From: Patescibacteria group bacterium
GTDB lineage: Bacteria > Patescibacteriota > Minisyncoccia > Phycocordibacterales > UBA1550
Length of the DNA stretch: 64,000 nucleotides
NCBI GenBank assembly: GCA_038063615.1
Contig: JBBTUT010000002.1
Span: 48,746-112,745, forward strand
Direction: 5' to 3'
Every line of letters begins with the position of its first letter. Within the stretch, counting starts at the first letter, position 1. Positions 29,299 through 58,674 of this stretch are shown in pieces. Below the pieces are notes generated by a model. The model searched no databases and was not told the origin of the DNA. It saw nothing but the letters and a program-made list of their open reading frames with translations. The translations under genes were made by a program, and so were the position numbers.

Positions 29299-29300
29299 AG

Positions 29301-30026: not shown

Positions 30027-30036
30027 ACAATAATAC

Positions 30037-31134: not shown

Positions 31135-31135
31135 A

Positions 31136-31912: not shown

Positions 31913-31923
31913 AAGTTATGAAT

Positions 31924-32874: not shown

Positions 32875-32890
32875 AAAAATAAATCCTTAT

Positions 32891-33862
32891 CTATTTCCTT
32901 TTACAAAATAAATAATAATTATCTTTTACATACTCTGTCTCTTCGTCATAAATCTTGTCATATATTTCTGTAACATTTTTTATATCTTCTGCAAAAGCGA
33001 ATGTATCTGCTGATTTCTGATATGCAAGAAGTAGGTATTTTGCCTTGAAGTAATCAATACTCTTTACATAGCTTTGCATAGCTTCATTTGACTCTGAGAG
33101 TGCCCAAGTGCTTATAAATAGATCAACACCGCTTATTATCTTGCTTATTTCACCAAAAATCTTTTTGTTTAAAGGGATGACATTTATTGAGCCCTTTTTA
33201 ATATAAATTTTATTATTATGCACAATATGAACTGCTTCCCTCCCGAATATTGTCTTTAAATACACTGCTTGTATGTATGAAAAGATAGGGATATCAATTA
33301 TAATATATGTTGATTCCTTATTCATTTTTTTATATATCTTGGACATATTGCCATAACCACCACCAACTTCAACCACAGTATTGATGTTCGATGAATTAGT
33401 TTCAGTTTCTTTAAAAAACTTAATCAGGTGATACAGATGATGGATATTATTTCCTGATGTAACATACCCAATATCATTTAGAAGAGGTTTGCCAATATTA
33501 TATTCACGAAGGATTTCTTTTGCCTTGTTTCTTGTTAAATATGTAGAAATAAGTTCCTTCTGGATATTTTTCCACTCACTATGTGTATACATGAACATAG
33601 TTGCTTTAATAACTTGATGGTTTAAAAATGAAAATGAAAAGTTATTTGAAAAATATTTTTCAATTTCAAGCATATTTTTGTTCCACTGAGGTACAATAAA
33701 CTCCGAGAAATCATAATTATCTTTATTAACTAAATATAAATTTTTCATTTCAGAATAAATTACCTCAAAATCTTTTTTACTAATACGCCTCTCGAATGGT
33801 GCCGTGAGAACAGAATAAGAATATCGATATATTTTAGAAATGATTTGCTTTACTTTTTGCAT
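32891..33862 (-). CDS. Class I SAM-dependent methyltransferase (putative sugar O-methyltransferase), very AT-rich
   Basis: VVEVGGGYGNMSKIY motif I. Confidence 0.45.
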   Translation of the reverse strand: MQKVKQIISKIYRYSYSVLTAPFERRISKKDFEVIYSEMKNLYLVNKDNYDFSEFIVPQWNKNMLEIEKYFSNNFSFSFLNHQVIKATMFMYTHSEWKNIQKELISTYLTRNKAKEILREYNIGKPLLNDIGYVTSGNNIHHLYHLIKFFKETETNSSNINTVVEVGGGYGNMSKIYKKMNKESTYIIIDIPIFSYIQAVYLKTIFGREAVHIVHNNKIYIKKGSINVIPLNKKIFGEISKIISGVDLFISTWALSESNEAMQSYVKSIDYFKAKYLLLAYQKSADTFAFAEDIKNVTEIYDKIYDEETEYVKDNYYLFCKRK

Positions 33863-34812
33863 AATATTTTTTTAAGTTTATACTTGATTCTTAAATAGTA
33901 ACCCTTGGTGCTGTTTCTTTTAATATATGTCGGTTTCGAAAATTTTATTTGTAAGGGTGGATATATTTTCCCAAAAGTGCTTTCATAGTTTGATATTAAA
34001 ATATTATCTCTGTTTATTAATTCATCCATAATATTTTTAGTGAAGTCGCTGCAGTCAAATGTGCATATAAAAGAAAGAGTTTCATTATTAAAAATATAAT
34101 AGTGCTCTAGGAAAATATCTCTCCAATTATAATTCATTTTACCATTATTATATTCTCTCATAAAATATGATTCGTTGAAGTGTATGCGATGTAAGTATTC
34201 AGAATCTGGGCAGGTATAAGCACTTAGTCCAGCACATAAGAATCTCCAAGCAAACCCTTGTGTGTCATAACCATGCGAAGTTGGATAACCACCCGTTTTG
34301 TTGAATGCACTTTTGGTATACAAAAAATTTACATAAAGCGGAGAAAAATTTTTATTTTTTGAAAGTAAAGATGCAAGTTGTATTTTCCCCCCAGGATAAG
34401 GAGATTTTTCTATGTGATGTATATTGTGAATATTATTACCACTGAACTTAACCGATCTATCTATGGTTACCCCATCACATCTTTTTTCTTTCAAAAATTT
34501 TATCATTTTTGAAAGTGTTCCATCTGGCAACACATCATCGCTATCAAGACAAAAGATAACATCCCCTTCGGCACTAGATATGGCGGTGTTGCGAGCGGCC
34601 CCACCACCAAGATTTTTATCGTGCCAAAAATACTTTATGGAGGAATTTTTTTTTGCCAATTCAACAATCAATTTTCGTGTATTGTCGGTCGAACCATCAT
34701 CAACAAGCACTACCTCAAAAGGAATATCTAAATCCTGCCTGTAAGCTGAAGCAACTGCTTCCTCAAGCGTTCTTACGCAATTATAACAAGGGATGATGAT
34801 GGAGAGTTTCAT
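33850..34812 (-). CDS. Family-2 glycosyltransferase. Start set at MKLSIIIPCYN.
   Basis: SIIIPCYNCVRTLEEAVASAYRQ...VVLVDDGSTDNT...CLDSDD. Confidence 0.8.
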   Translation of the reverse strand: MKLSIIIPCYNCVRTLEEAVASAYRQDLDIPFEVVLVDDGSTDNTRKLIVELAKKNSSIKYFWHDKNLGGGAARNTAISSAEGDVIFCLDSDDVLPDGTLSKMIKFLKEKRCDGVTIDRSVKFSGNNIHNIHHIEKSPYPGGKIQLASLLSKNKNFSPLYVNFLYTKSAFNKTGGYPTSHGYDTQGFAWRFLCAGLSAYTCPDSEYLHRIHFNESYFMREYNNGKMNYNWRDIFLEHYYIFNNETLSFICTFDCSDFTKNIMDELINRDNILISNYESTFGKIYPPLQIKFSKPTYIKRNSTKGYYLRIKYKLKKILCKK

Positions 34813-34823
34813 TTTTAAAGTGG

Positions 34824-35720
34824 TTACAAAAACATCCAATTTGCAGGGATATAATCTGTCGATGGAAGATTGGGGCAAGAATGGTGTGATTTTGGAGAAA
34901 AAACAATTTGCCCTTCTTTTTTGCCGAGCCAAGCACCCCACCAACTGAAAGTACTATTACCGAGAATATGATGCTTGCAGTGAGTCATGAGCCTCATGTC
35001 CTCATGGTTTTTTTTATCACCATTGTGCGAAACATAAATAGTTGGATATTTTAACTTTAAATTATTGCGCGCCCATTCTGGATCATCGGAAAAAACATAA
35101 AAAATGGGATCTTTTATTTTTAAGGCAATTTCCATTACTGCGCGGTGATAATATTCCAGCGGAAGAACCCCATTGATCATCTTTGTATTATCTCCATGAC
35201 GAACATGGAGACTGACTGAATTGCTTCCATCTATATCTTTTATCATTCGGCTGTTTATTTCATCAGGGACCTCTTTGAAAGAAAGTTCTTTTCTTATGAT
35301 ATTTTCAATATTTTTGAAATATTTCTCTGACTGCCAGTATCCTTCAACATAGACATCATTTTGTTGCTTTGTCGCCAAGATACATGGATCAAATTTAAAA
35401 TAATTTTTTTCCGGTTCTAAAATATATTTTCTCTTATAATAAGAATCTGGCTTACTGTAGAAACGAATGAGGTGTCTAAAAATTTTATTTTTAAGCAGAA
35501 AATTAAACTTAACCATGTCTTCTTTTGATGCCTGCTTTGCTGTAATATTGAAATTATCAAGACCGCAGACCCTAACCCCACGAATTGGATCTGGCTCAAT
35601 TTCCTTGTATCCAGAAATATCGACCTTGTGTTCTGTTTTATTAAGTACCGCTAAGTGGCACCCAAATGCGTATTGGAATAATTGATTTCCTAGCCCAGCA
35701 CTTATGTTGCTTATGATCAT
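34824..35720 (-). CDS. Alpha-1,2-fucosyltransferase (GT11), second copy
   Basis: AGLGNQLFQYA and HVRHGDN, the GT11 motifs. Confidence 0.8.
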   Translation of the reverse strand: MIISNISAGLGNQLFQYAFGCHLAVLNKTEHKVDISGYKEIEPDPIRGVRVCGLDNFNITAKQASKEDMVKFNFLLKNKIFRHLIRFYSKPDSYYKRKYILEPEKNYFKFDPCILATKQQNDVYVEGYWQSEKYFKNIENIIRKELSFKEVPDEINSRMIKDIDGSNSVSLHVRHGDNTKMINGVLPLEYYHRAVMEIALKIKDPIFYVFSDDPEWARNNLKLKYPTIYVSHNGDKKNHEDMRLMTHCKHHILGNSTFSWWGAWLGKKEGQIVFSPKSHHSCPNLPSTDYIPANWMFL

Positions 35721-35725
35721 GAATA

Positions 35726-36364
35726 CTAGTTAGATTCAATCACCATAATATCTCTTTCTATTTTAAATGAAAGATAACTATAATTAGCCACCAAATCTTG
35801 GATTTGTTTTACGGTTGGATAATCATGTGTCCCATCAAAACATCTAGCATCGTCGATTAAAATAATATCTTTTGCATTTTTTCTCGAAAAAATCGTGAGT
35901 AATTCTTTTATAACCGGCGTTTCTACCTCCCCTTTCGCGGTACCTTCGCCGGAATAATGAGCATCGAGCCAGAACAAAGCTGGCTCACTAATTGTGGGCA
36001 ATATTTCTATAAGTTTTTCTCCGCTGTCACCATGTATTAAGGTGACATTTTTATAATTAGCAAAATTATTTTTTGCATTTTCAAACAAAAAGTTGTCGAG
36101 CTCTATTGATACAATCTTAGAAAAGATATTTTTTACAGCGTTTATCATCAACCCCCCAGCTGTGCCAGTTTCTATAAAAGTTTTTAATTTGTTTTTTTTA
36201 CCAAACCTTCTAACGATTTTTTGTTTAATTAAATCTGGAGGAGGAACCGGCTGGCCTTCAAGAGACCATCTTAGTACAGCTTTTTCGTCCCGGATTCTTT
36301 TGATTATAGATTGTGGGATTATTTTTTTAAAAAATGCTTTTATTTTTTTATTCATATTTTTCAA
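35726..36364 (-). CDS. Class I SAM-dependent methyltransferase (TylF/MycF-like O-methyltransferase fold)
   Basis: FIETGTAGGLMINA motif I and ILIDDAR. Confidence 0.45.
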   Translation of the reverse strand: MKNMNKKIKAFFKKIIPQSIIKRIRDEKAVLRWSLEGQPVPPPDLIKQKIVRRFGKKNKLKTFIETGTAGGLMINAVKNIFSKIVSIELDNFLFENAKNNFANYKNVTLIHGDSGEKLIEILPTISEPALFWLDAHYSGEGTAKGEVETPVIKELLTIFSRKNAKDIILIDDARCFDGTHDYPTVKQIQDLVANYSYLSFKIERDIMVIESN

Positions 36365-36412
36365 GTTAATTTAAAGCCCTTATTCAAGAATAACGCCTAT
36401 TTTCCATGATAC

Positions 36413-37270
36413 TTAAAAAGTGCCATTTCTGCAAATTATTTTCTTAGAAAGGTCAAAAACCGTGCATTCTCGAATATTAATCCTTGGAATGCCTAAACTA
36501 TTTTTTGTCTTCTTTGCGAGTTTTTGCGTGTTTGAATACGCAAAATCAAAACCGGCCTGCTCAACTATTTCTTTTGAAAAATTATTAAAATCATAGATTC
36601 CACCAAAAGGATAGGCAAAACTTCTTACTTTTTCTCCAATTATATATTCAAGTGTAAGCTTGCTTTTTAAAATTTCTTTTTTCTGTTCTTCTGGGGTTGC
36701 GCTCGCAAGCCTTTGGTGTGTTTCTGTATGAGCGCCTATTTCTATCAATGGGTGTTCATAGAGTGATTTTATTTCTGTTTCACTTAAAAAAACTGCTCGG
36801 TCAGATTCTTTATATTTCATATCCCATTCAAACGATGCTTTTCTCCCGAGTGCGCCAGTTGTTATGAATATTGTTGCTGGTATATTATATTTTTCAAGTA
36901 AAGGAAGGGCATTGATTATGTTGTCGCGGTATCCATCATCAAAAGTAACCGCGGCCTCATTCCCTTTAAGTGTTCCCGCTATGAGTAGCCCGCTTAATTC
37001 TGAAAGAGGTATAATATTGTAATGTTTTTTGAGGAACTGTAGGTGATTTTCAAAACACACAGGTGTCACACATAGCATAAGTGGATCAGCAGATGTTGTC
37101 GAGATACGATGGTAAAGTAAAATTGGCGCGGTCTTGTAAAAAGTTTTATAAAATATATTAGCGATTTTTGCCTGAGTATGTAGTAGCAGAAAAAATAAAC
37201 GATGCATCGATACATAAAGACCGGTTGCTTCAAAAAAGGGTTTTATATAAATCTTTAAAATTCTTTTCAC
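36413..37270 (-). CDS. Polysaccharide deacetylase (NodB / CE4)
   Basis: AAVTFDDGYRDN...ATIFITTG...EIGAHTETHQRL, the CE4 motifs. Confidence 0.75.
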   Translation of the reverse strand: MKRILKIYIKPFFEATGLYVSMHRLFFLLLHTQAKIANIFYKTFYKTAPILLYHRISTTSADPLMLCVTPVCFENHLQFLKKHYNIIPLSELSGLLIAGTLKGNEAAVTFDDGYRDNIINALPLLEKYNIPATIFITTGALGRKASFEWDMKYKESDRAVFLSETEIKSLYEHPLIEIGAHTETHQRLASATPEEQKKEILKSKLTLEYIIGEKVRSFAYPFGGIYDFNNFSKEIVEQAGFDFAYSNTQKLAKKTKNSLGIPRINIRECTVFDLSKKIICRNGTF

Positions 37271-37992
37271 GGTTTTACTGCTTTAACTGTTATAATTAAC
37301 GGAAAATTTGGATCATTTTTCCCAAGTATCCTGCTCGAAGTATCCTCTTGCGCAAGACCCGCATAAAAATATATTCCCGAACGAGCGTTTCCATAGGTGG
37401 AGATGTTCAATTGTTTGGAGCTAAATTTTTTTTCAAATAGATACTTCGCTGACGCCTCAGTAAATCTCCAATAATCACCCTCAACACCCGAAACACAATC
37501 AATTCTACTTATGGAAGGCAATGTCACGAGAAGGACGCCACCGCTCTTAAGTATTCGGTGGCACTCAGAAATCCCCGCATCAACATTATCAATAAACTGA
37601 AATACCTGAGTAAGTATTATGCAGTCGTAAGAATTATCAGCTATTTTTTTAAGATGTCGCAAGTCATCGAAAATGTTTGCCATCTTGTTTTTTTCATCAA
37701 GATCCAAAACATCGCTTTTAACAACCTTCTCTTTCCCGTAGGTTGTGGTGTAGTTATTGTTTAACAGTTCGAGACATGTCCCATGGATGTCTTTCTGGTT
37801 TTGTTTAAGGAAATTCTCAATATAAAAACGGTCAATTGGTACTCCTCGGTCAAACCCATAGTAGTTGCTGAGTGGACCAGTTGTACTTCTGCAAAAATAG
37901 AATGCCGCAGGTTTTATTATTCGTCGCAGAAGTTTTCTTGTACTTTCAGAAAATGGAAGTTTTTTAATGATTTTTTTTAAATATGAGTACAT
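37267..37992 (-). CDS. Putative SAM-dependent methyltransferase
   Basis: HGTCLELLNNNY...DCIILTQVFQFIDN...LKSGGVLLVTLP, the Methyltransf_11/23-like pattern. Confidence 0.4.
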   Translation of the reverse strand: MYSYLKKIIKKLPFSESTRKLLRRIIKPAAFYFCRSTTGPLSNYYGFDRGVPIDRFYIENFLKQNQKDIHGTCLELLNNNYTTTYGKEKVVKSDVLDLDEKNKMANIFDDLRHLKKIADNSYDCIILTQVFQFIDNVDAGISECHRILKSGGVLLVTLPSISRIDCVSGVEGDYWRFTEASAKYLFEKKFSSKQLNISTYGNARSGIYFYAGLAQEDTSSRILGKNDPNFPLIITVKAVKP

Positions 37993-38015
37993 AATATTGA
38001 AAAGTTTATCACTTT

Positions 38016-38789
38016 TTACATTTTTTTTACAAACAGGTAATCTTTTTCATCTATTTCATCAACAAAGGAATACCCTCGAGGTTCCAGAAAATCGGTAATC
38101 TTTTCCAATCTGTCAGAATTTTGAGACTCCAAAAGAATATGGGTGGGTAAATTTCTAGAAAAATCGAGTCCATGCAATATTTGAAGTTCATATCCCTCAA
38201 CATCCGCAACAAAAAGATCAATAGGCCTATTGCATGAAGTTATTGCTTGCCCGTCTATTATCGACTGAATTGTTTGCGCTGGTACAGTGATTTCTCTGCA
38301 ATCTATATTTTGTGCTTGCTCACTATCTTTAATCCACTCTGAACTATTCTCAATACTACTTTTTACGAAAGACATAAAATTACAATCAATAAAAGACACC
38401 GTGCTCTCACGGTAGTCAAATGAGACACAAGCACTTTGTATTACCACCGAATTTTTACGATTTCTTTGACACAATTTACTTATAGGTAAGGGTTCAACAA
38501 TAATCCCTTCCCACCCCATAAACTTTTCGAGATAATAGGTAGGATCAAAACCATAACCATCATTACCCCCGCATTGTACAAAAAACCCATTTTTCTTGGT
38601 AATATGTTTCAGTAGTGCCTCATGACCAGAGTACGGCTTTGAATATTTTTCTGAACCAAAAAACTCATACAAATCCCTCTTGTATGGCGCAATTTTACTT
38701 CTTATAAATGGGAAGATTTTACCGATATTCTTTCGCGGGTTTTGTATCAGTTTCTTTATTTTTTGAAGATTTGTCTCTTGATATGCCAT
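38016..38789 (-). CDS. FkbM-family methyltransferase
   Basis: FFVQCGGNDGYGFDPTYY and DLFVADVEGYELQIL. Confidence 0.55.
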   Translation of the reverse strand: MAYQETNLQKIKKLIQNPRKNIGKIFPFIRSKIAPYKRDLYEFFGSEKYSKPYSGHEALLKHITKKNGFFVQCGGNDGYGFDPTYYLEKFMGWEGIIVEPLPISKLCQRNRKNSVVIQSACVSFDYRESTVSFIDCNFMSFVKSSIENSSEWIKDSEQAQNIDCREITVPAQTIQSIIDGQAITSCNRPIDLFVADVEGYELQILHGLDFSRNLPTHILLESQNSDRLEKITDFLEPRGYSFVDEIDEKDYLFVKKM

Positions 38790-38829
38790 AGGTTTTTATA
38801 TTTTTTATTACAATACTTAAAATTAATCT

Positions 38830-39795
38830 TTACGCAAGGATGCGTTTTAATAGTTTTGTAATTCTTAGTGCCACCAGTATCTTTACAAAATAATGCAATA
38901 CTCTGTCTCTTTTCCTTTTACCTATTTTACTATAAAATTCTTTTAATAACCTTACTGCTTCTGTATTTTCAACAATATTATCTTCAAAAATTATTTCTTC
39001 TTCATCGCTCAATTCAACCTCAAATTGGTGCTTCCCAAGAATTTTATTAATTGCAGAAAAGTGAGTGCCATTAAATAACCCGTTATTCTTTATTAAAGGT
39101 TTCGGTGAATTTACCGCAAGTCCATTGTTGCGTGTAATCGCAACATACCAACATATATCCCAAGGGATTGGATTTAATTTCAAGCTAGATAAACAATTAA
39201 ATGCGCCATCTAATTCCATTTTTCCCCTCTGTTCAATCGATAAAGCGTCTAATCCCTCTGCTTCATTTTGAAACCACTTGAATTTATCCCAGCGATTTTT
39301 CCAAGTACCCCACCCACCTCCAGTATTTTCTGAGTATCTCCAGAAAAATACTTTGTTGTACCCAGCTGGCATTTTAATAAATGTGAAGGTTGCAATATGC
39401 ATGACCTTCTCTTTGTCTTCATAAAAATCGAGAGCATTATTCATAAATGTGAGAAAGTTTTTTGCAGACACACCATCGTCCTCTAAAACGATAATTTTGC
39501 CATATCTGTTTACTATTTCAGTCACACCTTCAATTATATTTCTTTCGATATAGAAATTTTCTTTCCGTTCAATTATATTTACAGACTTAAAACCGGTTAT
39601 TGTTTTTATATACTGACGCACAGCATCAACAGCTTTCTTATTTTTTGCAGTTTTCGGCGCATCAGAAAAAATAAAGATATCTGTTTTTTGGGCTAGATAA
39701 TTATTTTTTAGCGCTTCTATTGTCTGCCTTGTATTATCCAAGCGATTGTACACAAAAATGGCGACAGGAGCTTGCGTTTTATTTAGATTATCCAT
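38830..39795 (-). CDS. GT-A-fold putative glycosyltransferase, paralog B (same family as 31924..32874)
   Basis: VAIFVYNRLDNTRQ...IFSDAP...GGGWGTWKNRW. Confidence 0.4.
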   Translation of the reverse strand: MDNLNKTQAPVAIFVYNRLDNTRQTIEALKNNYLAQKTDIFIFSDAPKTAKNKKAVDAVRQYIKTITGFKSVNIIERKENFYIERNIIEGVTEIVNRYGKIIVLEDDGVSAKNFLTFMNNALDFYEDKEKVMHIATFTFIKMPAGYNKVFFWRYSENTGGGWGTWKNRWDKFKWFQNEAEGLDALSIEQRGKMELDGAFNCLSSLKLNPIPWDICWYVAITRNNGLAVNSPKPLIKNNGLFNGTHFSAINKILGKHQFEVELSDEEEIIFEDNIVENTEAVRLLKEFYSKIGKRKRDRVLHYFVKILVALRITKLLKRILA

Positions 39796-40582
39796 GTTTT
39801 TGTAACGCTCGAGGATGATTACCTGGCGTGCTAATAAGTATTGATTTTGCGCGAGTAATGCGTTTTTCTGGTGGCGGTGGGGTTATATAATCTTTGCCAT
39901 ACATCAAAGATAAATATTCATGTACTTTTTTAGGTGCAGGATATAATTTACTCTCAAACTCAATATAATTAAGCGGGTAAATATAAGATTTTGGTATTGC
40001 ATAATAATACCAATTATCCTCAACAGTTTGGGCTACCTTGTCACTTTTAAATGGAGAAAGTAACAGCCAAATAAATTTGCACAATAGGTAGATAGAATAA
40101 TTAAAAAAGACATTTTCTCTGGAAATAACAGCTTTAGCGCGTGATCGACCAGTAAAGTACAGTAATCCCTTTCTCAAAAAGTCAGGCATCTTAGGATAAA
40201 TTACTGATGGGAAAATATCGATGTAGATTCCCTGATGATACGACTCTTCACCTGTTTCATTTTCGTGTAAAAATGTAGAATAACAATCACAGAGTTTTGC
40301 GAAGTGCTGCTTATATGCTTTGTCTGTTTTGGCGGTCTGCAGGAAAATATCTTGCGGGAGTTCTTTCTCTGCTATTTTTAAGAATTTTTTATAATCCTCT
40401 ACTGGCATTGACACATCAATGTCATCATCCCAAGGAATAAATCCTTTTTGTCGTACCGCACCAAGCAGGGTCCCAAAATCTATCCAAAAGACCAACCCAT
40501 GTTTGTCACAAATTTCTTTCAACGCATCCAGAAGATATATCTCTTTTTTCCTATACTCAATGTAGTCTTTTTCGCTTATCAT
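39788..40582 (-). CDS. LicD-family phosphotransferase (cholinephosphotransferase / fukutin-like)
   Basis: YLLDALKEICDKHGLVFWIDFGTLLGAVRQKGFIPWDDDIDVSM, the LicD nucleotidyltransferase-fold motif. Confidence 0.75.
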   Translation of the reverse strand: MISEKDYIEYRKKEIYLLDALKEICDKHGLVFWIDFGTLLGAVRQKGFIPWDDDIDVSMPVEDYKKFLKIAEKELPQDIFLQTAKTDKAYKQHFAKLCDCYSTFLHENETGEESYHQGIYIDIFPSVIYPKMPDFLRKGLLYFTGRSRAKAVISRENVFFNYSIYLLCKFIWLLLSPFKSDKVAQTVEDNWYYYAIPKSYIYPLNYIEFESKLYPAPKKVHEYLSLMYGKDYITPPPPEKRITRAKSILISTPGNHPRALQKHG

Positions 40583-40592
40583 ATATTTTATG

Positions 40593-41219
40593 TTATTTTT
40601 TTACCGCAATCACCCTTATGAATGTATAGTCAGTATCCCCAAATGGGGCAAAACCAGACTTTTCCTCTTTAAATACGACTTCAAATCCTGCCTTTATTAG
40701 TTTTTTGTGCAATCTGTCTATATCTATGAATCTACGAAAATGGCCTTCATAAATGTAGGCGTCTGGCTCACCATGAACAGGATCTCCTAATTTGTATATT
40801 TCGTTCTTCTTCCCCCTTGTTTCGATTAGTAGTTTACCATTGTTTTCTATGTGTTCATATGTCCACTTAATAACATCATCTTCCTCTTTTTCTGTAATAG
40901 AATGTAGCGTAAAACGAGAATAAACATTGTCAAAAAAGCCTATTTCGCCTAATTTTGTAAAATCAGCACACATAAATTTTAAATTGGGGATGTTATTTTT
41001 TTCTGCTAACACAGATATTTCATTTTCACATTGATCTACTGCTAAAACGTCAACGCCATGATCACTAAAAAGAAAACTATCTCTGCCATTTCCGCAACCA
41101 AGTTCTAATAAAGAATTTTTTTCTTTTATATAATTTTCTAATACGAACTGCGCGAATAAAGACGCTTGTAAAGGCGCATTCTTTATTTTATAATAATTTT
41201 CCCAATATTTTTTGTCCAT
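40593..41219 (-). CDS. Class I SAM-dependent methyltransferase
   Basis: LLELGCGNGRDSFLF, VLAVDQCENEI and MCADF. Confidence 0.7.
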   Translation of the reverse strand: MDKKYWENYYKIKNAPLQASLFAQFVLENYIKEKNSLLELGCGNGRDSFLFSDHGVDVLAVDQCENEISVLAEKNNIPNLKFMCADFTKLGEIGFFDNVYSRFTLHSITEKEEDDVIKWTYEHIENNGKLLIETRGKKNEIYKLGDPVHGEPDAYIYEGHFRRFIDIDRLHKKLIKAGFEVVFKEEKSGFAPFGDTDYTFIRVIAVKK

Positions 41220-41264
41220 GTTTTATATTATTACCTAATTAACTGCGTAAATTCTTGTATATTT

Positions 41265-42566
41265 TTAATTTTTTTGGGTGAAAATTTTAATTATACCATC
41301 TCTTGATCTTTTAAAAAGGAGCAAGCTGGCTACAACCACAAGATATGATATCATAGTCCCCCATGCAGATCCTTTGGGGCCAAACTGCGGAATCAGAATA
41401 ACATTAAGCAGAATATTTGCTGTAGCGCCAATAATGCTTGTGTATAAAAATATTCTGCTAAGATTTTCGACGATGAGGTAATGTTGCGCAAGAACTACTA
41501 GCGTTATAGCGATACTTGTCCATAGGTATATTCGAAGAATCGGAGATGATTCAGCAAAGGCTCCTCCAAAAACAATTTGGATAATTAATGGCGCAAAAAT
41601 AAACAGCGGAAGAGCAATTACGGCTGTTGCCACCACGGTAACCCATGATAGAGCTCGAAATCTTTTTGCATACAATGAAAAATTTGTTTTTTTTGCATTT
41701 ACTATTGCTGGAAACATTGAACTAATAATTAACCCAGGCAAGAATGCCCAAATTTGAGTAAGCTTAACAGCGGCGCCGTAAATTCCGACAGTTGCAGAAT
41801 CGAGATAGTGTAAAAGTAACACCTGATCCATTTTTGCATATATATATCCAGAAAATCCAGCTAGAAGTAACGGCCATGAGTCTCGCATTAGTTGTTTAAA
41901 TATATCTAAACGAAAATTCCACAAAAAAGGACTGTTGTTAAAACGAACAATATAAATATAAAGATACCATGCGACAGATATGATTGCTTCAATAAAAATT
42001 ATTACAGCAAAGTATATAATACCTTTGTTTAGAAACACGACAAGAATCTTAAGCGCAGGTATGAAAAAAGCTAGGAAAATGGAAATTTGGGAGCTAAATT
42101 TTGCTTTTACTTGAGCGTTGAAAAGAATTCCGACTGTGCCTATTGGGCTAATGATGAAAGCTAACGCGCAAATACCAATTAATATAGTTAAGATTGAATC
42201 ATTGCCTAAGAGAAGTGAGATCACAATTGACAATAAGAACGCGAGTATCCCAAAAATTAATTTTGAAAATATAGCAGTTCCAAGTAGCTCATTTTCTTTT
42301 TCTGGATTAGTAATAAGATCACGATATAAGATTTGATCAATACCCAATGATGCAAATACTGAAATAATGGCTACAAAACTTTGGGCATAATCAAGTTTCC
42401 CAAGGTTCTCTGGCCCAAGGTAGCGTGCAACAATTGCAACAGTAAGAAATGATGTAAAGAAAGTAGTAATACGCGCAGCAAACATCCACCCCATGTTTCT
42501 GAAGTACTTCTGAAAGCCAGCATGTGCCCATGTTTCTTTTATGTATGAGGCGGTAATTGGGGGCAT
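41265..42566 (-). CDS. Wzx-type polysaccharide flippase (MOP/PST family)
   Basis: 433 aa with about 12-14 TM segments and the typical PST N-terminus. Confidence 0.7.
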   Translation of the reverse strand: MPPITASYIKETWAHAGFQKYFRNMGWMFAARITTFFTSFLTVAIVARYLGPENLGKLDYAQSFVAIISVFASLGIDQILYRDLITNPEKENELLGTAIFSKLIFGILAFLLSIVISLLLGNDSILTILIGICALAFIISPIGTVGILFNAQVKAKFSSQISIFLAFFIPALKILVVFLNKGIIYFAVIIFIEAIISVAWYLYIYIVRFNNSPFLWNFRLDIFKQLMRDSWPLLLAGFSGYIYAKMDQVLLLHYLDSATVGIYGAAVKLTQIWAFLPGLIISSMFPAIVNAKKTNFSLYAKRFRALSWVTVVATAVIALPLFIFAPLIIQIVFGGAFAESSPILRIYLWTSIAITLVVLAQHYLIVENLSRIFLYTSIIGATANILLNVILIPQFGPKGSAWGTMISYLVVVASLLLFKRSRDGIIKIFTQKN

Positions 42567-42650
42567 AATATTGGGACTTTATTGGAGGATAATACCATTT
42601 TCCCTACTTATTTTCTATAGGGGATGGTATATTAAACAGGAAAGAATATC

Positions 42651-43502: not shown

Positions 43503-43546
43503 TAGCTTTGAATACCTGATTTTAGTCTAATTCCCCCAAATAGGTA

Positions 43547-43595
43547 TATTACGGGGAGTTTGACTCCCCGTAATTGACATATTACGGGGAGTTTG
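43547..43595. promoter_or_regulatory. Direct repeat tattacggggagtttga (twice) with an internal inverted repeat (attacggggag / ctccccgtaat), upstream of the AAA+ ATPase gene
   Basis: Read from the sequence. Contains TTGACA at 43575-43580. Confidence 0.3.
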
Positions 43596-43611
43596 ATACC
43601 CTTAAAGGTAT

Positions 43612-44762: not shown

Positions 44763-46448
44763 CTACAGTGCCTTCACCATATATGTCCCCTCGAGCCGGT
44801 ATCCCCATTTGCGGTAATATTCGCGGACGCCGATGCCGGAGATGATGGCGAGTTTGGCGTAGCCGGCTTCGCGCGCGATGCGTTCTGCTTCGACGAGGAG
44901 GCGGCGGCCGAAGCCGATGTGCTGGCTTTGCGTGCCTGCGGTGCCGATTGGGGTGAGCTGCCCGTAGGTGTGGAGCTCGCGCACGAGTGCGGCGTCGCGG
45001 AGGACCTCGAGTGGTCCGCCGACGAATTCTTCGCCGTGATTGTCGGGGAGGCGCAGGCGAAGAAAAGCGGCGAGTTTGCCCTCGTTCGGCTCTTCAAAAC
45101 TAAGAAAGATCTCGCGCCCTGTTTTAGTGCGATACTCGGTCGTCGTGAGCGGAAACTTTTCCAAGTCAATGACGGCGCCACGCACTTCGCGACAGCGGAT
45201 GCATACGCAGTGCCAGTTGTGCTTTTTCATATCATTAAAAAGCCATTGGCGGAGATTTGAAATTTTGCTTCCCGCTTGAATGTAGGTCGCGGGGATGTCG
45301 CGGATGACCCGAATGATGCGCACATATTTCGGCACCTGTTTTTTTGCGCCGACGAGCACGCGAAAAAGCTCCTCGTCCGTGTACGGCTTGAACCCGCCTT
45401 CCTTCCATATTTGAAAAAGCTCACTCCCCTCGAGCACCATACACGGATACACCTTGAGCATATCGGGTTGAAAATCCTCGCCGGAAAAAAGCTCGCCAAA
45501 CATTTCGATGTCGCGCTCCACGGTCGAGCCGGGAAGATTGGGCATCATATGGTATACGACTTTGAGTCCCGCATTGCGGAGGCGCTCAGTTGCCTGTGCC
45601 ACCTGCGCAATCTTCATATCGCGTTTTGTTTGTTTGAGGACAGCATCATCAAGATGCTGAACACCAATCTCGACTTTGGTCACACCGAGCAGACGCAGTC
45701 GTTCAATTTCGTAAGTCGTAATGTAATCGGGACGCGTCTCTATTGAAAGTCCGATGATGCGCGTTCCCGCCGTTTCGTTTTCATTTTGTAATTCCGCAAG
45801 AGACTTTACACCCTTTGGTGTCTGCATGTCTTTCTGTTTTCCAAAATTGTTGCATGCGCGATAGCATTCAGCGAGAAATTCTTCCTGATATTTCGGATGA
45901 TAAAAACTCCAAGTCCCGCCGATGACGATCATCTCTATCTTGTCGGTCGCGTGTCCGTTCATCACGAGCGCAGAGAGACGGCTCGTCACTTGGTCGTACG
46001 GATCGAAGTCGTTGGCAAGGGCGCGCGCGGCGGCCGGCTCTTTTGAAAGATAGCTCTTCGGCATTTTCTCTTCGGTCGGACAATAGGTACACCGCCCCGG
46101 ACAGGGATACGGTTTGGTAAGGAGCGACACGACCGCAACGCCGGAATTGCTTCGTGTCTTTATTTTTTTCAAAACAAGCTCCGCGTCAAGATTTGGCATC
46201 TCATCCCCTGTTGCGATGACCTCTTTGTACAAGGCAAGCATTTCCGCATTGGTAGGCATTTTTGGACCCAATCCATCCTCAGAAACCGCCGTATTCGGCT
46301 CATTTTGCCCCATAGAAGCGGGTTTGTTCTGTCGAGAGGGGATGTTTTGGCGAAGCTCCAAAATACGCGCATAGAGCACCGGATTGGTGGCGATGCGCCG
46401 TTTGAGCTTGTCCAAGTCCTTTTCGGTTTTTATGTCGGTGAAAAGCAT
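44763..46448 (-). CDS. elp3: Elp3-type radical-SAM / GNAT tRNA uridine(34) acetyltransferase. Start set at MLFTDIKTEK.
   Basis: CPGRCTYCP radical SAM cluster motif, a C-terminal GNAT domain (GFGRRLLVEAERIAREAGYAKLAIISGIGVREYYRKWGY), and typical Elp3 length. Confidence 0.85.
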   Translation of the reverse strand: MLFTDIKTEKDLDKLKRRIATNPVLYARILELRQNIPSRQNKPASMGQNEPNTAVSEDGLGPKMPTNAEMLALYKEVIATGDEMPNLDAELVLKKIKTRSNSGVAVVSLLTKPYPCPGRCTYCPTEEKMPKSYLSKEPAAARALANDFDPYDQVTSRLSALVMNGHATDKIEMIVIGGTWSFYHPKYQEEFLAECYRACNNFGKQKDMQTPKGVKSLAELQNENETAGTRIIGLSIETRPDYITTYEIERLRLLGVTKVEIGVQHLDDAVLKQTKRDMKIAQVAQATERLRNAGLKVVYHMMPNLPGSTVERDIEMFGELFSGEDFQPDMLKVYPCMVLEGSELFQIWKEGGFKPYTDEELFRVLVGAKKQVPKYVRIIRVIRDIPATYIQAGSKISNLRQWLFNDMKKHNWHCVCIRCREVRGAVIDLEKFPLTTTEYRTKTGREIFLSFEEPNEGKLAAFLRLRLPDNHGEEFVGGPLEVLRDAALVRELHTYGQLTPIGTAGTQSQHIGFGRRLLVEAERIAREAGYAKLAIISGIGVREYYRKWGYRLEGTYMVKAL

Positions 46449-46456
46449 GATAAATG

Positions 46457-46550
46457 GTAGAATGTTGAATATCGAATATGGAATGTCGAATTGGATGCAA
46501 TTCAATACGGGCTTGATTCAATATTCAATATTCTACATTCGATATTCTAC
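46457..46550. repeat. Low-complexity imperfect inverted repeat of GAATAT/CGAAT-rich arms in the divergent elp3 / methyltransferase promoter region
   Basis: ggtagaatgttgaatatcgaatatggaatgtcgaattg ... caatattcaatattctacattcgatattctacc. Confidence 0.5.
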
Positions 46551-46562
46551 CCCATACTACCA

Positions 46563-47297
46563 ATGCGCAAAGAATATGCAAATGAAGTACTCTCGGCGTC
46601 AAAAGCGGGATACGAAATAATAGCGGAGGATTTTTCGCGGACGCGAGGAAAATTTTGGAAAGAGCTTCTTTTTGTGCGGGACATGATTCCAAAAGGGGCG
46701 CGACTTCTCGATGTTGGCTGCGGGAACGGAAGATTCCTTGGTTCTCCACTCGACGAGTCGATTGACTACACAGGAATTGATTTCTCGGAAGGATTGATCA
46801 GTGTCGCACGGGAACGCTACGATTCACGAGCACACACCACATTCGTCGCTGGCGATGCTCTTACCCTCCCCTTCCCCGACCACTCATTTGATATCGTGGT
46901 TTCTTTTGCCGTGCTTCACCATATCCCCTCGCGCGCATACCGCGTGGAATTTTTGCGTGAGGTGGCGCGCGCAGTGAAACCCGGCGGACTCATTATTATC
47001 ACCGCATGGAATGTGTGGCGCGCGAAACCGCGGATAATTTTAAAATACGCATTCAAAAAGATCTGCGGGCTTGCCAGCCTAGATTTTGTACTTAAAAATT
47101 TTTGCGGGCTTTCGCGTCTCGATTTCGGCGATGCATTCCTCGGTTTTGGAAAAGAAAAAAACGCGCGCTTCGTGCACGCGCTTTCGAAACGCGAACTCTT
47201 CTCCCTCGCGCGCGAAGCAGGGCTTACGGTAGAAAAATTCGACATCATCCGCCGCCCCTTCGGAGAAGAAAACTTTTTTATGATCATGCGCAGCTAA
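46563..47297 (+). CDS. Trm9-like (Methyltransf_11) SAM-dependent methyltransferase, divergent from elp3. Start set at MRKEYANEV.
   Basis: LLDVGCGNGRFL ... GIDFSEGLISVAR ... FVAGDALTLPFPDHSFDIVVSFAVLHHIPSRAYRVEFLREVARAVKPGGLIIITAWNVW parallels the Trm9/ALKBH8 methyltransferase motifs (AV.HH.ST...R...L.E..RVLKPGG...WA.EQ). Confidence 0.5.
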   Translation: MRKEYANEVLSASKAGYEIIAEDFSRTRGKFWKELLFVRDMIPKGARLLDVGCGNGRFLGSPLDESIDYTGIDFSEGLISVARERYDSRAHTTFVAGDALTLPFPDHSFDIVVSFAVLHHIPSRAYRVEFLREVARAVKPGGLIIITAWNVWRAKPRIILKYAFKKICGLASLDFVLKNFCGLSRLDFGDAFLGFGKEKNARFVHALSKRELFSLAREAGLTVEKFDIIRRPFGEENFFMIMRS

Positions 47298-47343
47298 CCC
47301 CGTAACCCCTATCTCCACAACTATCTCCCCAATCTTATCTTTT

Positions 47344-47389
47344 TCTCTTCAGCCTGTTTGATACTATAGTATCAAACAGGCTGAAGAGA
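47344..47389. repeat. Perfect 46 nt palindrome, family P2, 44 nt downstream of the PaaX-like gene 2 stop
   Basis: tctcttcagcctgtttgatacta|tagtatcaaacaggctgaagaga. Confidence 0.8.
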
Positions 47390-47432
47390 AATTCAACGAG
47401 ACCTCCTCGAAACGAGTGCTCCTGCGGATAAT

Positions 47433-55670: not shown

Positions 55671-55686
55671 TATCTGCTTTTCAAAG

Positions 55687-55760
55687 TGCGCGATCCAGGA
55701 CTCGAACCTGGGACCTCGTCATTATCAGTGACGCGCTCTAACCACCTGAGCTAATCGCGC
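55687..55760 (-). tRNA. tRNA-Ile (anticodon GAU), 74 nt, no encoded CCA
   Basis: GCGCGATTAGCTCAGGTGGTTAGAGCGCGTCACTGATAATGACGAGGTCCCAGGTTCGAGTCCTGGATCGCGCA. A 7 bp acceptor stem, GTGG D-loop, anticodon loop CTGATAA and TTCGAGT T-loop. Confidence 0.85.
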
Positions 55761-56410: not shown

Positions 56411-57026
56411 GTTTGAAAAATTGCATGTATGTAATATCTAAAAATTATTTGTTGAGTATTCTTTCTTTTGTTCCGTTCTTCGCCTTGCTTTGCCGTCCGT
56501 TTTAAAAAAACAGGCGATTAAGCAAGGTCTTGCGTACCGGTAACCCTTCCGGTAAGGGAGCCCCTTTTTGAGATGGGAGGGCCTTCATCTTAATTCCTTG
56601 CGGAAAAAACCGACCAATTCAGCGTATCGCAACCACGAGGGCGTACGATACAACATTATATTTTGAATTGATTCACGACCAGCTTCCGCTAGCCGTGCCT
56701 TGTTACGACTTAGTCCTTGTTACCAAGCTTACCTTAGGTCCACGCGAGGTGGAACTTCGGGTACTCTCGGCTCCCCTGACTTGACGGGCGGTGAGTACAA
56801 GACTTGAGAACGTATTCACCGCAGTATAGCTGACCTGCGATTACTAGCGATTCCAACTTCATGAGGTCGAGTTTCAGCCCTCAATCCGAACTGGGGCCAC
56901 CTTTATTAGGATTAGCTCAGGGTTACCCCGTCGCGACCCGTTGTAGTGGCCATTGTATCAAGTGTGCAGCCCAGGGTATCAAAGGGACATGCTGACCTGG
57001 CGTCATCCTCTCCTTCCTCCCCCGCC

Positions 57027-57153
57027 TTTATTCGCGAAGCGAACAAAGGCAAGTCAAAAGTTAAAAGTCACAAGTCGAAAGTAGATGCATTTTGCATTCA
57101 CTTTTTACTTTACACTTTCTACTTTCCACTTGCCTTTGCGCTTCGTGCGCAAA
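57027..57153 (-). other. 16S insertion 1: an AT-rich extended hairpin of about 116 extra nt replacing the small loop before the GGAGGAAGG region (E. coli position about 1165)
   Basis: Sense strand reads TTTGCGCACGAAGCGCAAAGGCAAGTGGAAAGTAGAAAGTGTAAAGT...ACTTTCGACTTGTGACTTTTAACTTTTGACTTGCCTTTGTTCGCTTCGCGAATAAA, full of (G/C)AAAGT repeats. No ORF. Confidence 0.6.
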
Positions 57154-57388
57154 GGCGGGGGCAGTCTCGTCTGACACATATAACAGACAACGAGGGTTGC
57201 GTTCGTTGACCCACTTAAGGGGACAGTTCAAACCACGAACTGACGACGGCCATGCATCACCTGTCCATAAGTCCTTGCGGAGTTACCGAGTTTCCTCGGT
57301 CTTTCTTATGGATTTCTAACCCTGGTGAGGTTCTTCGTTTACCATCGAATTAAGCCACCTGATCCACCGCTTGTGCAAGTCCCCGTCT

Positions 57389-57420
<32 letters not shown>

Positions 57421-57918
57421 TCCCAGGCGGATCTCTTAACGCGTTAGCTTCGCCTCTCAGAGGGTCGATACTCCGAAAAGCTAGAGATCATCGTTTAGGG
57501 CGTAGACTACTGGGGTATCTAATCCCATTCGCTACCTACGCTTTCGTGTTTCAGTGTCAGAAATGTGCCAGTTTGCTGCCTTCGCATTTGGTGTTCCCCA
57601 TGATATCAACGGATTTCACCCCTACACCATGAGTTCCGCAAACCTCTCACACCCTCTAGTCGTGCCGTTTCAGCCGCAATTCTCCGGTTAAGCCGGAGGC
57701 TTTGACGAATGACTAACACGACCACCTACACACCCTTTACGCCCAATAATTCCGGATAACGCTTGGGGTACTCGTATTACCGCTGCTGCTGGCACGAGTT
57801 TAGCAACCCCTTATTCATGAGGTACTATCAAAAATTTCTCCCTCATAAAAGATCTTTACATCCCGAAAGACTTCATCGATCACGCGGCGTCGCTCCATCA
57901 GACTTTCGTCCATTGTGG

Positions 57919-57949
<31 letters not shown>

Positions 57950-58189
57950 ATGGTCCGTGTCTCAGTACCATCGGTGGGGGTCAGGCTCTCACCTCCCCTA
58001 AGCGTCATAGCCTTGGTAAGCCATTACCTTACCAACTAGCTGATACTCAATAAGCCAAGCCCCAAGCGATAAATCTTTACTCCGAAGAGACTATCAAGTA
58101 TTAGCCCGCCTTTCGGCGGGTTATTCCTGACTTGGGGGTTTGTACCTATTTATTACTACCTCGTTCGCAACTCCGAGCATCACGCTACG

Positions 58190-58292
58190 CGCGATACACG
58201 AGTCAAAAGTCGAAAGTCCTTAAAGTCCAAAGTAAATACGAATTGTATTCACTTTTGACTTTCGACTTTATAAACTTTTTGACTTGTGCATC
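58190..58292 (-). other. 16S insertion 2: an AT-rich hairpin expansion of helix 6 (V1 region), about 95 extra nt, with the same AAAGT/GACTTT repeat flavour
   Basis: Stem base CCGAGCATCAC ... GTGATGCTCGG. The interior reads CAAGTCAAAAAGTTTATAAAGTCGAAAGTCAAAAGTGAATACAATTCGTATTTACTTTGGACTTTAAGGACTTTCGACTTTTGACTCG. Confidence 0.6.
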
Positions 58293-58674
58293 ACACCCAA
58301 TGTGATGCTCGGCGTTCTACTTGCATGCCTTATCCACGCCGCCAGCGTTCATCCTGAGCTAGGATCAAACTCTCTTAAAAAGAGCATTTGAATTAACTCT
58401 CAAGAACGGAACAAAAGAAAAAATACTCTTTTGTATTCTTGTTATTTTACTCACAAGATCTGCCCAACTGCTAAAATCGAACAGATCCTTTTTTGGACTT
58501 GCAATCCAAACTTTAGATGTTTACATATATGCAATTGTCAAAGGTCGTTTTGCTTTCGGGCAAATACCCTGAAAGCAAAAGCGCTCATTCCTAAGCGCTT
58601 GAGCAGTATATACTTGTGTCGAAAAGAAGTCAAGCGCGAATTTTAGGCATATTTTATAGGCAAAATAAAGGTTT

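What the first reader, a model, noticed from the sequence alone, without database searches (positions are those of the whole stretch)
44763..47297. Bacterial Elp3 next to a divergently transcribed Trm9-like methyltransferase: a candidate two-step mcm5U-type wobble modification pair
Elp3 (radical SAM plus GNAT) makes cm5U34 in eukaryotes and archaea, and Trm9 methylates it to mcm5U. Here a full Elp3 and a Methyltransf_11 protein whose motifs track Trm9 (AVLHHIPSRAYRVEFLREVARAVKPGGLIIITAWNVW) share one divergent promoter region, which is itself an odd GAATAT/CGAAT low-complexity palindrome (46457-46550).

A linked Elp3-Trm9 pair in a bacterium would point to a eukaryote-like U34 pathway, presumably acquired or retained in this lineage. 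The direct repeat scar next to elp3 supports mobility of the region.
Basis: partly seen in the sequence, partly recalled or inferred. Interest (0 to 1): 0.5.

Follow-up and report, generated by a model that had tools for sequence, protein, structure and literature searches.

The report
Bacterial Elp3 paired with Trm9-like methyltransferase
A candidate-phyla bacterium carries, back to back, the enzyme that puts a carboxymethyl group on the wobble uridine of tRNA (Elp3) and a methyltransferase with the active-site residues of Trm9, and because the same pair recurs in many other bacteria, including cultured Dehalococcoides, a tRNA modification so far reported only in eukaryotes and archaea (mcm5U) is probably made in bacteria too.

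Summary
A complete Elp3 gene (44763-46448, minus strand) and a 244-aa class I methyltransferase gene (46563-47297, plus strand) diverge from a 114-bp spacer.

The main interpretation holds up:
- The methyltransferase is not UbiE/MenG. It scores far below those curated cut-offs.
- A profile of its family hits yeast Trm9 best among all solved structures.
- It keeps 7 of the 8 residues shown by mutagenesis to be essential in yeast Trm9.
- In 50 of 56 assessable genomes, family members lie within 10 kb of Elp3, and 37 are directly divergent. None of 19 generic relatives do (p = 6e-13).
- The linked genomes span Patescibacteria, Anaerolineae and other phyla as labelled.
- The pair also flanks the crystallised Elp3 of Dehalococcoides mccartyi.

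Databases call these proteins generic methyltransferases. A 2017 expert review states that bacteria have no homologues of the methyltransferases that partner with Trm112, which include Trm9.

Two side claims fail:
- The "odd palindrome" is a roughly 94-bp insertion specific to this genome. Three close relatives have only 19-22 bp between the two start codons. It belongs to a dispersed class of GAATRTN heptad repeats.
- Nothing supports mobility of the pair.

No biochemistry exists for any of this. mcm5U formation is inferred.

The parts
44763..46448 (-). elp3: radical-SAM plus GNAT tRNA U34 carboxymethyl synthase, 561 aa, with a roughly 90-aa N-terminal extension
   Evidence: TIGR01211 scores 537.5 bits against a cut-off of 350. 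PDB Elp3 matches reach E 1e-117. The start is fixed by relatives and by the NCBI record MEK7568580.1.
46563..47297 (+). Trm9-like class I SAM methyltransferase, 244 aa. The predicted reaction is methyl esterification of cm5U34 to mcm5U34.
46449..46562 (.). Divergent intergenic spacer, 114 bp here and only 19-22 bp in three close relatives
46457..46550 (.). Genome-specific palindromic insertion made of GAATRTN heptads, with arms at 46456-46491 and 46516-46551
   Evidence: It is absent from L081, L082 and L084. Similar heptad elements occur on 27 metagenome contigs.
47055..47125 (+). In-frame 39-nt tandem duplication (13 codons) inside the variable loop of the methyltransferase, found only in this genome
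   Evidence: The DNA repeat has 39-nt spacing and 75% identity. None of 31 homologues has the extra 13 residues. The model is disordered there, with pLDDT below 50 at residues 172-182.
47342..47391 (.). Perfect 25+25 nt palindrome between the convergent methyltransferase gene and the PaaX-like gene. It is a likely bidirectional terminator hairpin.
   Evidence: The palindrome is shown. The terminator role is an inference.

Best explanation
The two genes form a minimal two-enzyme pathway for the wobble uridine (U34) of tRNA.

Step 1. Elp3 works alone, as in archaea. It uses its radical-SAM [4Fe-4S] domain and its acetyl-CoA-binding GNAT domain to attach a carboxymethyl group to C5 of U34, giving cm5U. 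This chemistry is established for the family and inferred here.

Step 2. The neighbouring methyltransferase is a bacterial orthologue of Trm9. It uses SAM to methylate the carboxylate, giving mcm5U, or mcm5s2U if the tRNA is also thiolated. In yeast Trm9 the following roles were proposed from mutagenesis and docking:
- R28 and H120 would orient the carboxylate.
- H119 and N237 would read the uracil.
- W149 and the aromatic residue at position 195 would stack on bases.
- R202 would contact the carboxylate.

The divergent, nearly abutting arrangement of the two genes probably keeps them co-expressed.

The pair is a conserved module of Patescibacteria and Chloroflexota, and of some other phyla as labelled. 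It is not a peculiarity of this genome.

The palindrome between the genes here is a later insertion of an intergenic heptad-repeat element.
For: Shown by computation:
- Elp3 is intact and above the curated cut-off.
- Trm9 is the best solved-structure match to the family profile. The profile-profile match to fungal Trm9 covers the full length.
- The essential residues of yeast Trm9 (PMC4678810) are conserved in 51 Elp3-linked proteins. Counts: Y17 51/51, R28 51/51, D73 51/51, H119 50/51, H120 50/51, W149 51/51, position 195 W45/F4/Y1, R202 50/51, H205 48/51.
- The 8-residue signature separates linked proteins from unlinked controls.
- A fungal Trm9 HMM scores 57-98 bits for most of the Patescibacteria-like Elp3-linked proteins, from HMM position ~10-18. 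Core-only methyltransferases score 19-41 bits, mostly from position ~40-50.
- Linkage is 50/56 against 0/19, p = 6e-13, and 37 loci are directly divergent.
- Only these two genes are conserved across the loci.
- Three close relatives keep the pair while their other neighbours differ.
- D. mccartyi and four other Dehalococcoidia have the same divergent pair.
- One Crenarchaeota contig has the pair co-directional (L028).

Established knowledge:
- Archaeal Elp3 alone makes cm5U in vitro.
- H. volcanii Trm9-Trm112 makes mcm5U and needs cm5U.
- The Elp3 and Trm9 genes cluster in Sulfolobus (PMC6144793, PMC7663514).

One JGI record of the family already carries the KO name 'alkB family protein 8' (P0030).
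Against: - There is no biochemical or mass-spectrometric evidence for cm5U or mcm5U in any bacterium (PMC7663514).
- The position equivalent to yeast Y243, which is essential in yeast, is variable (V16, Y15, C12 and others; V in this protein).
- By single-sequence search Trm9 ranks only 8th in the PDB. By profile it only just beats 3SM3.
- The neighbour-joining split that groups Trm9 with the linked family has only 13% bootstrap support.
- Eukaryotic and haloarchaeal Trm9 need Trm112. No Trm112-like gene was found in the window or near any pair (a crude test).
- Six family loci with room on both sides show no Elp3 within 10 kb.
Confidence: 0.75

Rival explanations
1. The methyltransferase does work with Elp3 on tRNA but carries out a different reaction. 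It could methylate another atom of the xm5U side chain or a neighbouring nucleotide. The final product could be something other than mcm5U, for example a further-processed derivative.
For: The Y243-equivalent position is not conserved. The bacterial proteins have their own helical insert (residues ~151-190) in place of the Trm9 variable insertion. No Trm112 partner is evident. The chemistry of bacterial Elp3 products has never been measured (PMC7663514).
Against: The residues proposed to hold the cm5U carboxylate and the uracil ring (R29, H115, H116, R241, N271 equivalents) are the ones that are conserved.
Confidence: 0.13
2. It is a generic small-molecule methyltransferase (UbiE/MenG-like or similar) that merely sits next to Elp3.
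For: Pfam and NCBIfam give only generic or sub-threshold UbiE/MenG hits. Public records name it 'class I SAM-dependent methyltransferase' or 'UbiE'.
Against: All UbiE/MenG scores are 2.5 to 7 times below their cut-offs. Adjacency is conserved across phyla at 50/56 against 0/19. The Trm9 signature is absent from generic relatives.
Confidence: 0.04
3. It is a CmoM-like enzyme that methyl-esterifies cmo5U (the bacterial oxyacetic-acid wobble pathway) rather than cm5U.
For: CmoM catalyses the same type of reaction, methyl esterification of a U34 carboxylate, and has the same broad fold class. This rests on my own knowledge and was not tested here.
Against: No chain named CmoM or SmtA appears among the 60 best PDB sequence matches. 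The conserved partner is Elp3, not CmoA/CmoB.
Confidence: 0.03
4. The palindrome between the genes is a conserved regulatory operator or shared bidirectional promoter of the pair.
For: It lies exactly between the two start codons. It is strongly non-random and carries TAGAAT-like hexamers at both ends.
Against: It is absent from three relatives with 68-77% identical methyltransferases, whose spacers are 19-22 bp. Similar heptad elements on other contigs are intergenic but not preferentially upstream of genes, and none is next to Elp3 or the methyltransferase. The promoter scan finds only two weak 9/12 matches.
Confidence: 0.1

Closest known systems
Trm9 / ALKBH8 methyltransferase domain (eukaryotes) and HvoTrm9 (Haloferax volcanii): tRNA (carboxymethyluridine(34)-5-O)-methyltransferase
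   Same: It shares the class I fold, the N-terminal Y-x3-A-x2-FS-x-TR-x3-W motif, the HH motif, and the W after strand 4. It also shares the VPW-like aromatic, the R-x-x-H motif and the C-terminal N. It acts downstream of Elp3.
   Different: It is bacterial. No Trm112 partner is seen nearby. The Y243 equivalent is variable. It has a short helical insert of its own instead of the long eukaryotic insertion. The gene is physically paired with elp3.
Elp3-Trm9 gene cluster of Sulfolobus solfataricus (Grosjean et al. 2008, cited in PMC6144793 and PMC5372719)
   Same: The same two gene families are adjacent. One Crenarchaeota contig (L028) in my set shows this arrangement.
   Different: That cluster is archaeal. 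In the one archaeal locus seen here (L028) the two genes are co-directional, whereas 37 of the 50 linked loci, all bacterial as labelled, have the genes divergent with very short spacers.
DmcElp3, the crystallised bacterial Elp3 of Dehalococcoides mccartyi (PDB 5L7J)
   Same: It is a stand-alone bacterial Elp3. Its gene also has a divergent Trm9-like neighbour 43 bp away.
   Different: The Elp3 here has a ~90-aa N-terminal extension, which DmcElp3 lacks, and scores higher against archaeal M. infernus Elp3 (396 against 359 bits). The Dehalococcoides methyltransferase is a more divergent family member (98 bits to the family HMM).
MnmE/MnmG (and MnmC), the usual bacterial xm5U34 pathway
   Same: It has the same target atom (C5 of U34) and the same role in decoding.
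   Different: The enzymes and chemistry are unrelated. Whether these genomes lack MnmE/MnmG could not be tested from a 64-kb window.

Membership tests
Elp3 (TIGR01211) | Whole-protein score above the curated cut-off | tested here: met
   537.5 bits against a cut-off of 350, covering model positions 51-522 of 522.
Elp3 (TIGR01211) | Radical-SAM cluster cysteines, the CxCxxC zinc motif of prokaryotic Elp3, and the acetyl-CoA (Q/R-x-x-G-x-G) motif in the GNAT domain | tested here: met
   CPGRCTYC, HCVCIRC and QHIGFGRR align with the same motifs of DmcElp3 and MinElp3. The importance of these motifs is taken from PMC6367351.
Elp3 (TIGR01211) | Catalyses cm5U34 formation on tRNA | not testable with these tools
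   Needs enzymology or tRNA mass spectrometry.
Trm9 (tRNA cm5U34 O-methyltransferase) | Class I SAM methyltransferase fold with a SAM-binding aspartate (yeast D72) | tested here: met
   Methyltransf_11 scores 92 bits. The model has pLDDT 90.3. D73 is present in 51/51 linked proteins.
Trm9 (tRNA cm5U34 O-methyltransferase) | Residues essential in yeast Trm9: R29, H116, W145, W168, R241, N271 (plus Y18 and H115) | tested here: met
   In this protein they are R28, H120, W149, F195, R202 and N237, plus Y17 and H119. They are conserved in 50-51 of 51 linked proteins. Position 195 is W in 45, F in 4 and Y in 1. N237 is N in 23, with 18 alignment gaps.
Trm9 (tRNA cm5U34 O-methyltransferase) | Y243 (essential in yeast) | tested here: not met
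   It is V204 here. Across the linked family it is V16, Y15, C12 and others.
Trm9 (tRNA cm5U34 O-methyltransferase) | Closer to Trm9 than to any other characterised methyltransferase | tested here: inconclusive
Trm9 (tRNA cm5U34 O-methyltransferase) | Functional association with Elp3 | tested here: met
   50/56 loci have Elp3 within 10 kb, against 0/19 controls, p = 6e-13. The reverse test gives 5/6.
Trm9 (tRNA cm5U34 O-methyltransferase) | Obligate activation by Trm112 | tested here: inconclusive
   There is no conserved third gene. A regex search found no Zn-knuckle ORF in the window or in the loci. A partner encoded elsewhere in the genome cannot be excluded.
Trm9 (tRNA cm5U34 O-methyltransferase) | Converts cm5U to mcm5U | not testable with these tools
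   Needs an in vitro assay on trm9-delta tRNA, or LC-MS.
UbiE/MenG quinone methyltransferases | Score above the NCBIfam cut-offs | tested here: not met
   The best score is 64.7 bits against a cut-off of 235. TIGR01934 scores 59.3 against 158.

The most novel reading that the evidence does not exclude
Bacteria of at least two large lineages (Patescibacteria and Chloroflexota) make mcm5U-type wobble uridines with a self-sufficient two-protein module: Elp3 plus a Trm112-independent Trm9. This module would take over the role that MnmE/MnmG plays in other bacteria. The 'eukaryotic' Elongator-Trm9 pathway would then be an ancient prokaryotic module shared across all three domains.
Probability: 0.35. 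Interest if true: 0.7.

Novelty: new member of a known kind. Interest (0 to 1): 0.55.

Why it matters
mcm5U and its derivatives are documented in eukaryotes and, since 2018, in one archaeon. For bacteria, reviews say there is no direct evidence of xcm5U derivatives, and that no homologues of the Trm112-dependent methyltransferases exist (PMC7663514, PMC5372719).

A conserved Elp3-Trm9 gene pair in many bacterial genomes predicts that this modification exists in bacteria. It also gives a function to a widespread protein family that is currently annotated only generically, with 1,334 clusters at 50% identity reaching E <= 1e-30.

The prediction is directly testable. The same pair is present in cultured Dehalococcoides mccartyi, whose Elp3 is already expressed and crystallised.

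The pair also bears on how candidate-phyla bacteria with reduced genomes decode split codon boxes, and on the evolutionary origin of the Elongator pathway.

Tried and rejected
- The Glatt 2016 DmcElp3 paper is not held. I could not check whether it mentions the neighbouring gene.
- The first tree script timed out and the second crashed on a distance formula. The third gave the expected topology with weak support. I do not lean on the phylogeny.
- A regex search for Trm112-like zinc-knuckle ORFs found nothing. The test is too crude to prove absence.
- The promoter and terminator scan of the spacer gave only two weak 9/12 matches. I make no promoter claim.
- From memory I took PDB 6F5Z to be the H. 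volcanii Trm9 structure. The entry is actually Hvo_0019, so I dropped it as evidence.
- A second Trm9-HMM hit in the window (17382-18002, 42.7 bits) lacks the HH, W145 and R-x-x-H motifs. It is not a Trm9.
- I tested whether the N-terminal Y-x2-IA motif is specific to Trm9. It is not, because that other methyltransferase has it too. I therefore scored only the mutagenesis-backed residues.
- I considered that the heptad palindrome is a promoter module. I rejected this because similar elements elsewhere often lie between convergent genes.
- Six literature searches found no paper describing a bacterial Trm9 (plus reading). The library is not exhaustive.
Full report
**What is there**

The window is from a Patescibacteria (candidate phyla radiation) MAG. 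The two proteins are NCBI MEK7568580.1 and MEK7568581.1, on a 140-kb contig.

Elp3:
- On the minus strand, 44763-46448 encodes a 561-aa protein.
- It scores 537.5 bits on TIGR01211 ELP3, whose cut-off is 350.
- It matches the crystal structures of archaeal M. infernus Elp3 (E 1.9e-117) and bacterial D. mccartyi Elp3 (E 3e-106).
- The cluster cysteines, the prokaryote-type CxCxxC zinc motif and the acetyl-CoA motif are all aligned.

Methyltransferase:
- On the plus strand, 46563-47297 encodes a 244-aa class I methyltransferase (Methyltransf_11, 92 bits).
- The two start codons are 114 bp apart. Both start positions are fixed by conservation in relatives.

Neighbouring genes are unrelated to tRNA modification. 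They are:
- an AAA_14/DUF4143 ATPase,
- a PaaX-like protein,
- a glycosyltransferase,
- an LTD/PKD surface protein,
- a TraG-like ATPase.

**Is the methyltransferase Trm9-like or generic?**

Curated libraries give no specific family. The UbiE/MenG models score 59-65 bits against cut-offs of 158-420, so it is not a quinone methyltransferase.

Sequence comparisons:
- A single-sequence PDB search puts Yarrowia Trm9 (5CM2_Z) eighth.
- With a profile of 32 family members, Trm9 becomes the best of 177,635 PDB sequences. The alignment runs from the N-terminal TR-x3-W motif to the C-terminal R-Y-x-H motif. The margin over an uncharacterised archaeal protein is small, however.
- I recovered authentic yeast Trm9 (P0121) and 15 other fungal Trm9.
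- BLASTP gives 37% identity over 147 residues.
- hhalign of the two family alignments gives probability 99.9 and E 1.9e-32 over 210 columns, end to end.

Fold comparisons:
- Dozens of methyltransferase families score almost as well. Fold alone does not decide the question.

Active-site residues:
- Létoquart et al. (PMC4678810) showed by mutagenesis that R29, D72, H116, W145, W168, R241, Y243 and N271 of yeast Trm9 are required.
- They also proposed that Y18, H115 and R241 contact the cm5U.
- In this protein the equivalents are R28, D73, H120, W149, F195, R202, V204 and N237, plus Y17 and H119.
- Across 51 Elp3-linked homologues these positions are essentially invariant. The exception is the Y243 position, which varies.
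- I scored an 8-residue signature (RDHHWWRH). It is complete in 46 of 51 linked proteins.
- It is at most 3/8 in 18 of 19 generic Methyltransf_11 proteins drawn from the same scan.

**Co-occurrence**

One scan of a representative genome of each of 185,579 species with the family alignment returned 80 loci.
- tblastn with the window's Elp3 found Elp3 within 10 kb in 50 of them.
- In 37 it lies immediately upstream and divergent.
- The family HMM splits the loci cleanly into full-length members (at least 95 bits) and core-only relatives.
- Of 56 full-length members with room on the contig, 50 are Elp3-linked. Of 19 core-only relatives, none is (Fisher p = 6e-13).
- Linked loci are labelled as many classes of Patescibacteria, Anaerolineae and other Chloroflexota, Fermentibacteria, Multivoraceae and one Crenarchaeota archaeon.
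- All-against-all clustering of every ORF in the linked loci shows that only these two genes are conserved. There is no third partner.
- Three close relatives (68-77% identical methyltransferases) keep the pair while every other neighbour differs.

For the reverse test I rebuilt the DmcElp3 sequence from the PDB alignment and searched with it.
- In D. mccartyi itself (CP019867.1), a 224-aa Methyltransf_11 gene lies divergent, 43 bp from elp3.
- The same is true in four other Dehalococcoidia. One locus lacks it, and one is cut by a contig end.
- The Dehalococcoides protein carries 7-8 of the 8 signature residues.
- It is annotated everywhere as 'class I SAM-dependent methyltransferase' or 'UbiE'.

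**Mechanism**

The best reading has two steps:
- Elp3 makes cm5U34, as stand-alone archaeal Elp3 does in vitro (PMC7663514).
- The Trm9 orthologue then methylates the carboxylate to give mcm5U34, as shown for yeast and H. volcanii Trm9-Trm112 (PMC6144793).

The family assignments, the residue conservation and the linkage are shown here. The two reactions are inferred.

Open points:
- the variable Y243 position;
- the apparent absence of a nearby Trm112;
- whether 2-thiolation follows;
- whether MnmE/MnmG is absent from these genomes.

**What is known**

- Elp3 in bacteria is known but was long described as confined to Dehalococcoides (PMC7663514). A 2026 paper says 'numerous bacteria' (PMC13315578).
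- Elp3-Trm9 gene clustering was noted in Sulfolobus, and mcm5U was shown in H. volcanii (PMC6144793).
- For bacteria, a 2017 review states that no genes similar to the Trm112-dependent methyltransferases could be detected (PMC5372719).
- I found no paper on a bacterial Trm9.
- One JGI record already carries the KO label for ALKBH8.

The pair is therefore a new (bacterial) member of a known pathway, widespread rather than peculiar to this window.

**The palindrome**

- The 94-bp element at 46457-46550 is real and far from random.
- Three relatives have only 19-22 bp between the two start codons, so here it is an insertion.
- A metagenome scan found the same GTAGAAT-(GAATRTN)n heptad runs, often as palindromes, on 27 contigs.
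- These are intergenic in 25 of 29 cases. They are not preferentially upstream of genes, and none is next to elp3.
- I read it as a dispersed intergenic repeat of the REP/MITE kind that landed in the spacer. I do not read it as the pair's operator.

**Mobility**

- The pair's GC content (0.50-0.53) matches the neighbouring GC-richer genes.
- The compositional outlier in the window is a 35% GC polysaccharide gene island at 28-42.6 kb.
- The nearest direct repeats are not adjacent to elp3.
- Nothing suggests that the pair is on a mobile element.

Noticed in passing
window 46457-46550; loci L086-L112: GTAGAAT followed by tandem GAATRTN heptads, often arranged as palindromes with a variable centre. 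The pattern recurs on 27 metagenome contigs, and one 14-kb contig (L109) has six runs. The elements are intergenic but have no consistent position relative to gene starts. They may be an undescribed family of intergenic repeats.
   Followed up: partly
L081 1687-1705, L082 3982-4000, L084 3979-4000: In close relatives the divergent elp3 and methyltransferase start codons are only 19-22 bp apart. Each promoter must therefore lie inside the other gene, or the mRNAs are leaderless. A TATACT-like hexamer sits 4 nt before the methyltransferase ATG in L082 and L084.
   Followed up: partly
window 47055-47125: A 39-nt in-frame tandem duplication adds 13 residues (GLASLDFVLKNFC) to a disordered loop of the methyltransferase. 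None of 31 homologues has it.
   Followed up: yes
window 47342-47391: A perfect 50-nt palindrome (25+25 nt, no loop) lies between the convergent methyltransferase and PaaX-like genes. A 12-nt tandem repeat lies just before it, at 47309-47332.
   Followed up: no
window 43524-43596: A 33-nt direct repeat (76% identity) overlaps a 34-nt inverted repeat in the gap upstream of the AAA_14/DUF4143 ATPase gene. That gene is absent from the equivalent position in relatives.
   Followed up: no
L113, L114, L115, L118, L119 (Dehalococcoidia): The block RuvB - QueH (epoxyqueuosine reductase, another wobble-base enzyme) - GNAT acetyltransferase is conserved 1-3 kb from the Elp3/methyltransferase pair.
   Followed up: no
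window 56661-58380 and 55686-55760: The 16S rRNA gene is 1720 nt against a 1533-nt model, so it probably carries an insertion. It is followed by tRNA-Ile(GAU), but no 23S rRNA gene is found anywhere in the window, so the rRNA genes appear unlinked.
   Followed up: no
window 28000-42600: A low-GC island (0.35, against 0.45 for the whole window) is full of glycosyltransferase and polysaccharide-export genes. It ends about 2 kb before elp3.
   Followed up: partly
window 17382-18002 and 40593-41219: There are two further small Methyltransf_11/23-type methyltransferases. The first gives a weak Trm9-HMM hit and shares the N-terminal Y-x2-IA motif, but it lacks the Trm9 active-site residues.
   Followed up: yes
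NCBIfam TIGR01211 product name: NCBI names Elp3 'tRNA uridine(34) 5-carboxymethylaminomethyl modification ... enzyme'. The literature read here describes its product as 5-carboxymethyluridine (cm5U). The name seems to conflate it with the MnmE/MnmG product.
   Followed up: no
L008, L020, L023, L026, L027, L031, L032, L039: MAGs titled 'uncultured Gammaproteobacteria' or 'Pseudomonadales' carry methyltransferase-family genes like those of the Patescibacteria, and six of the eight also have Elp3 on the same contig, though only three of those six (L023, L026, L031) as the directly divergent pair. These taxonomic labels may be unreliable.
   Followed up: no
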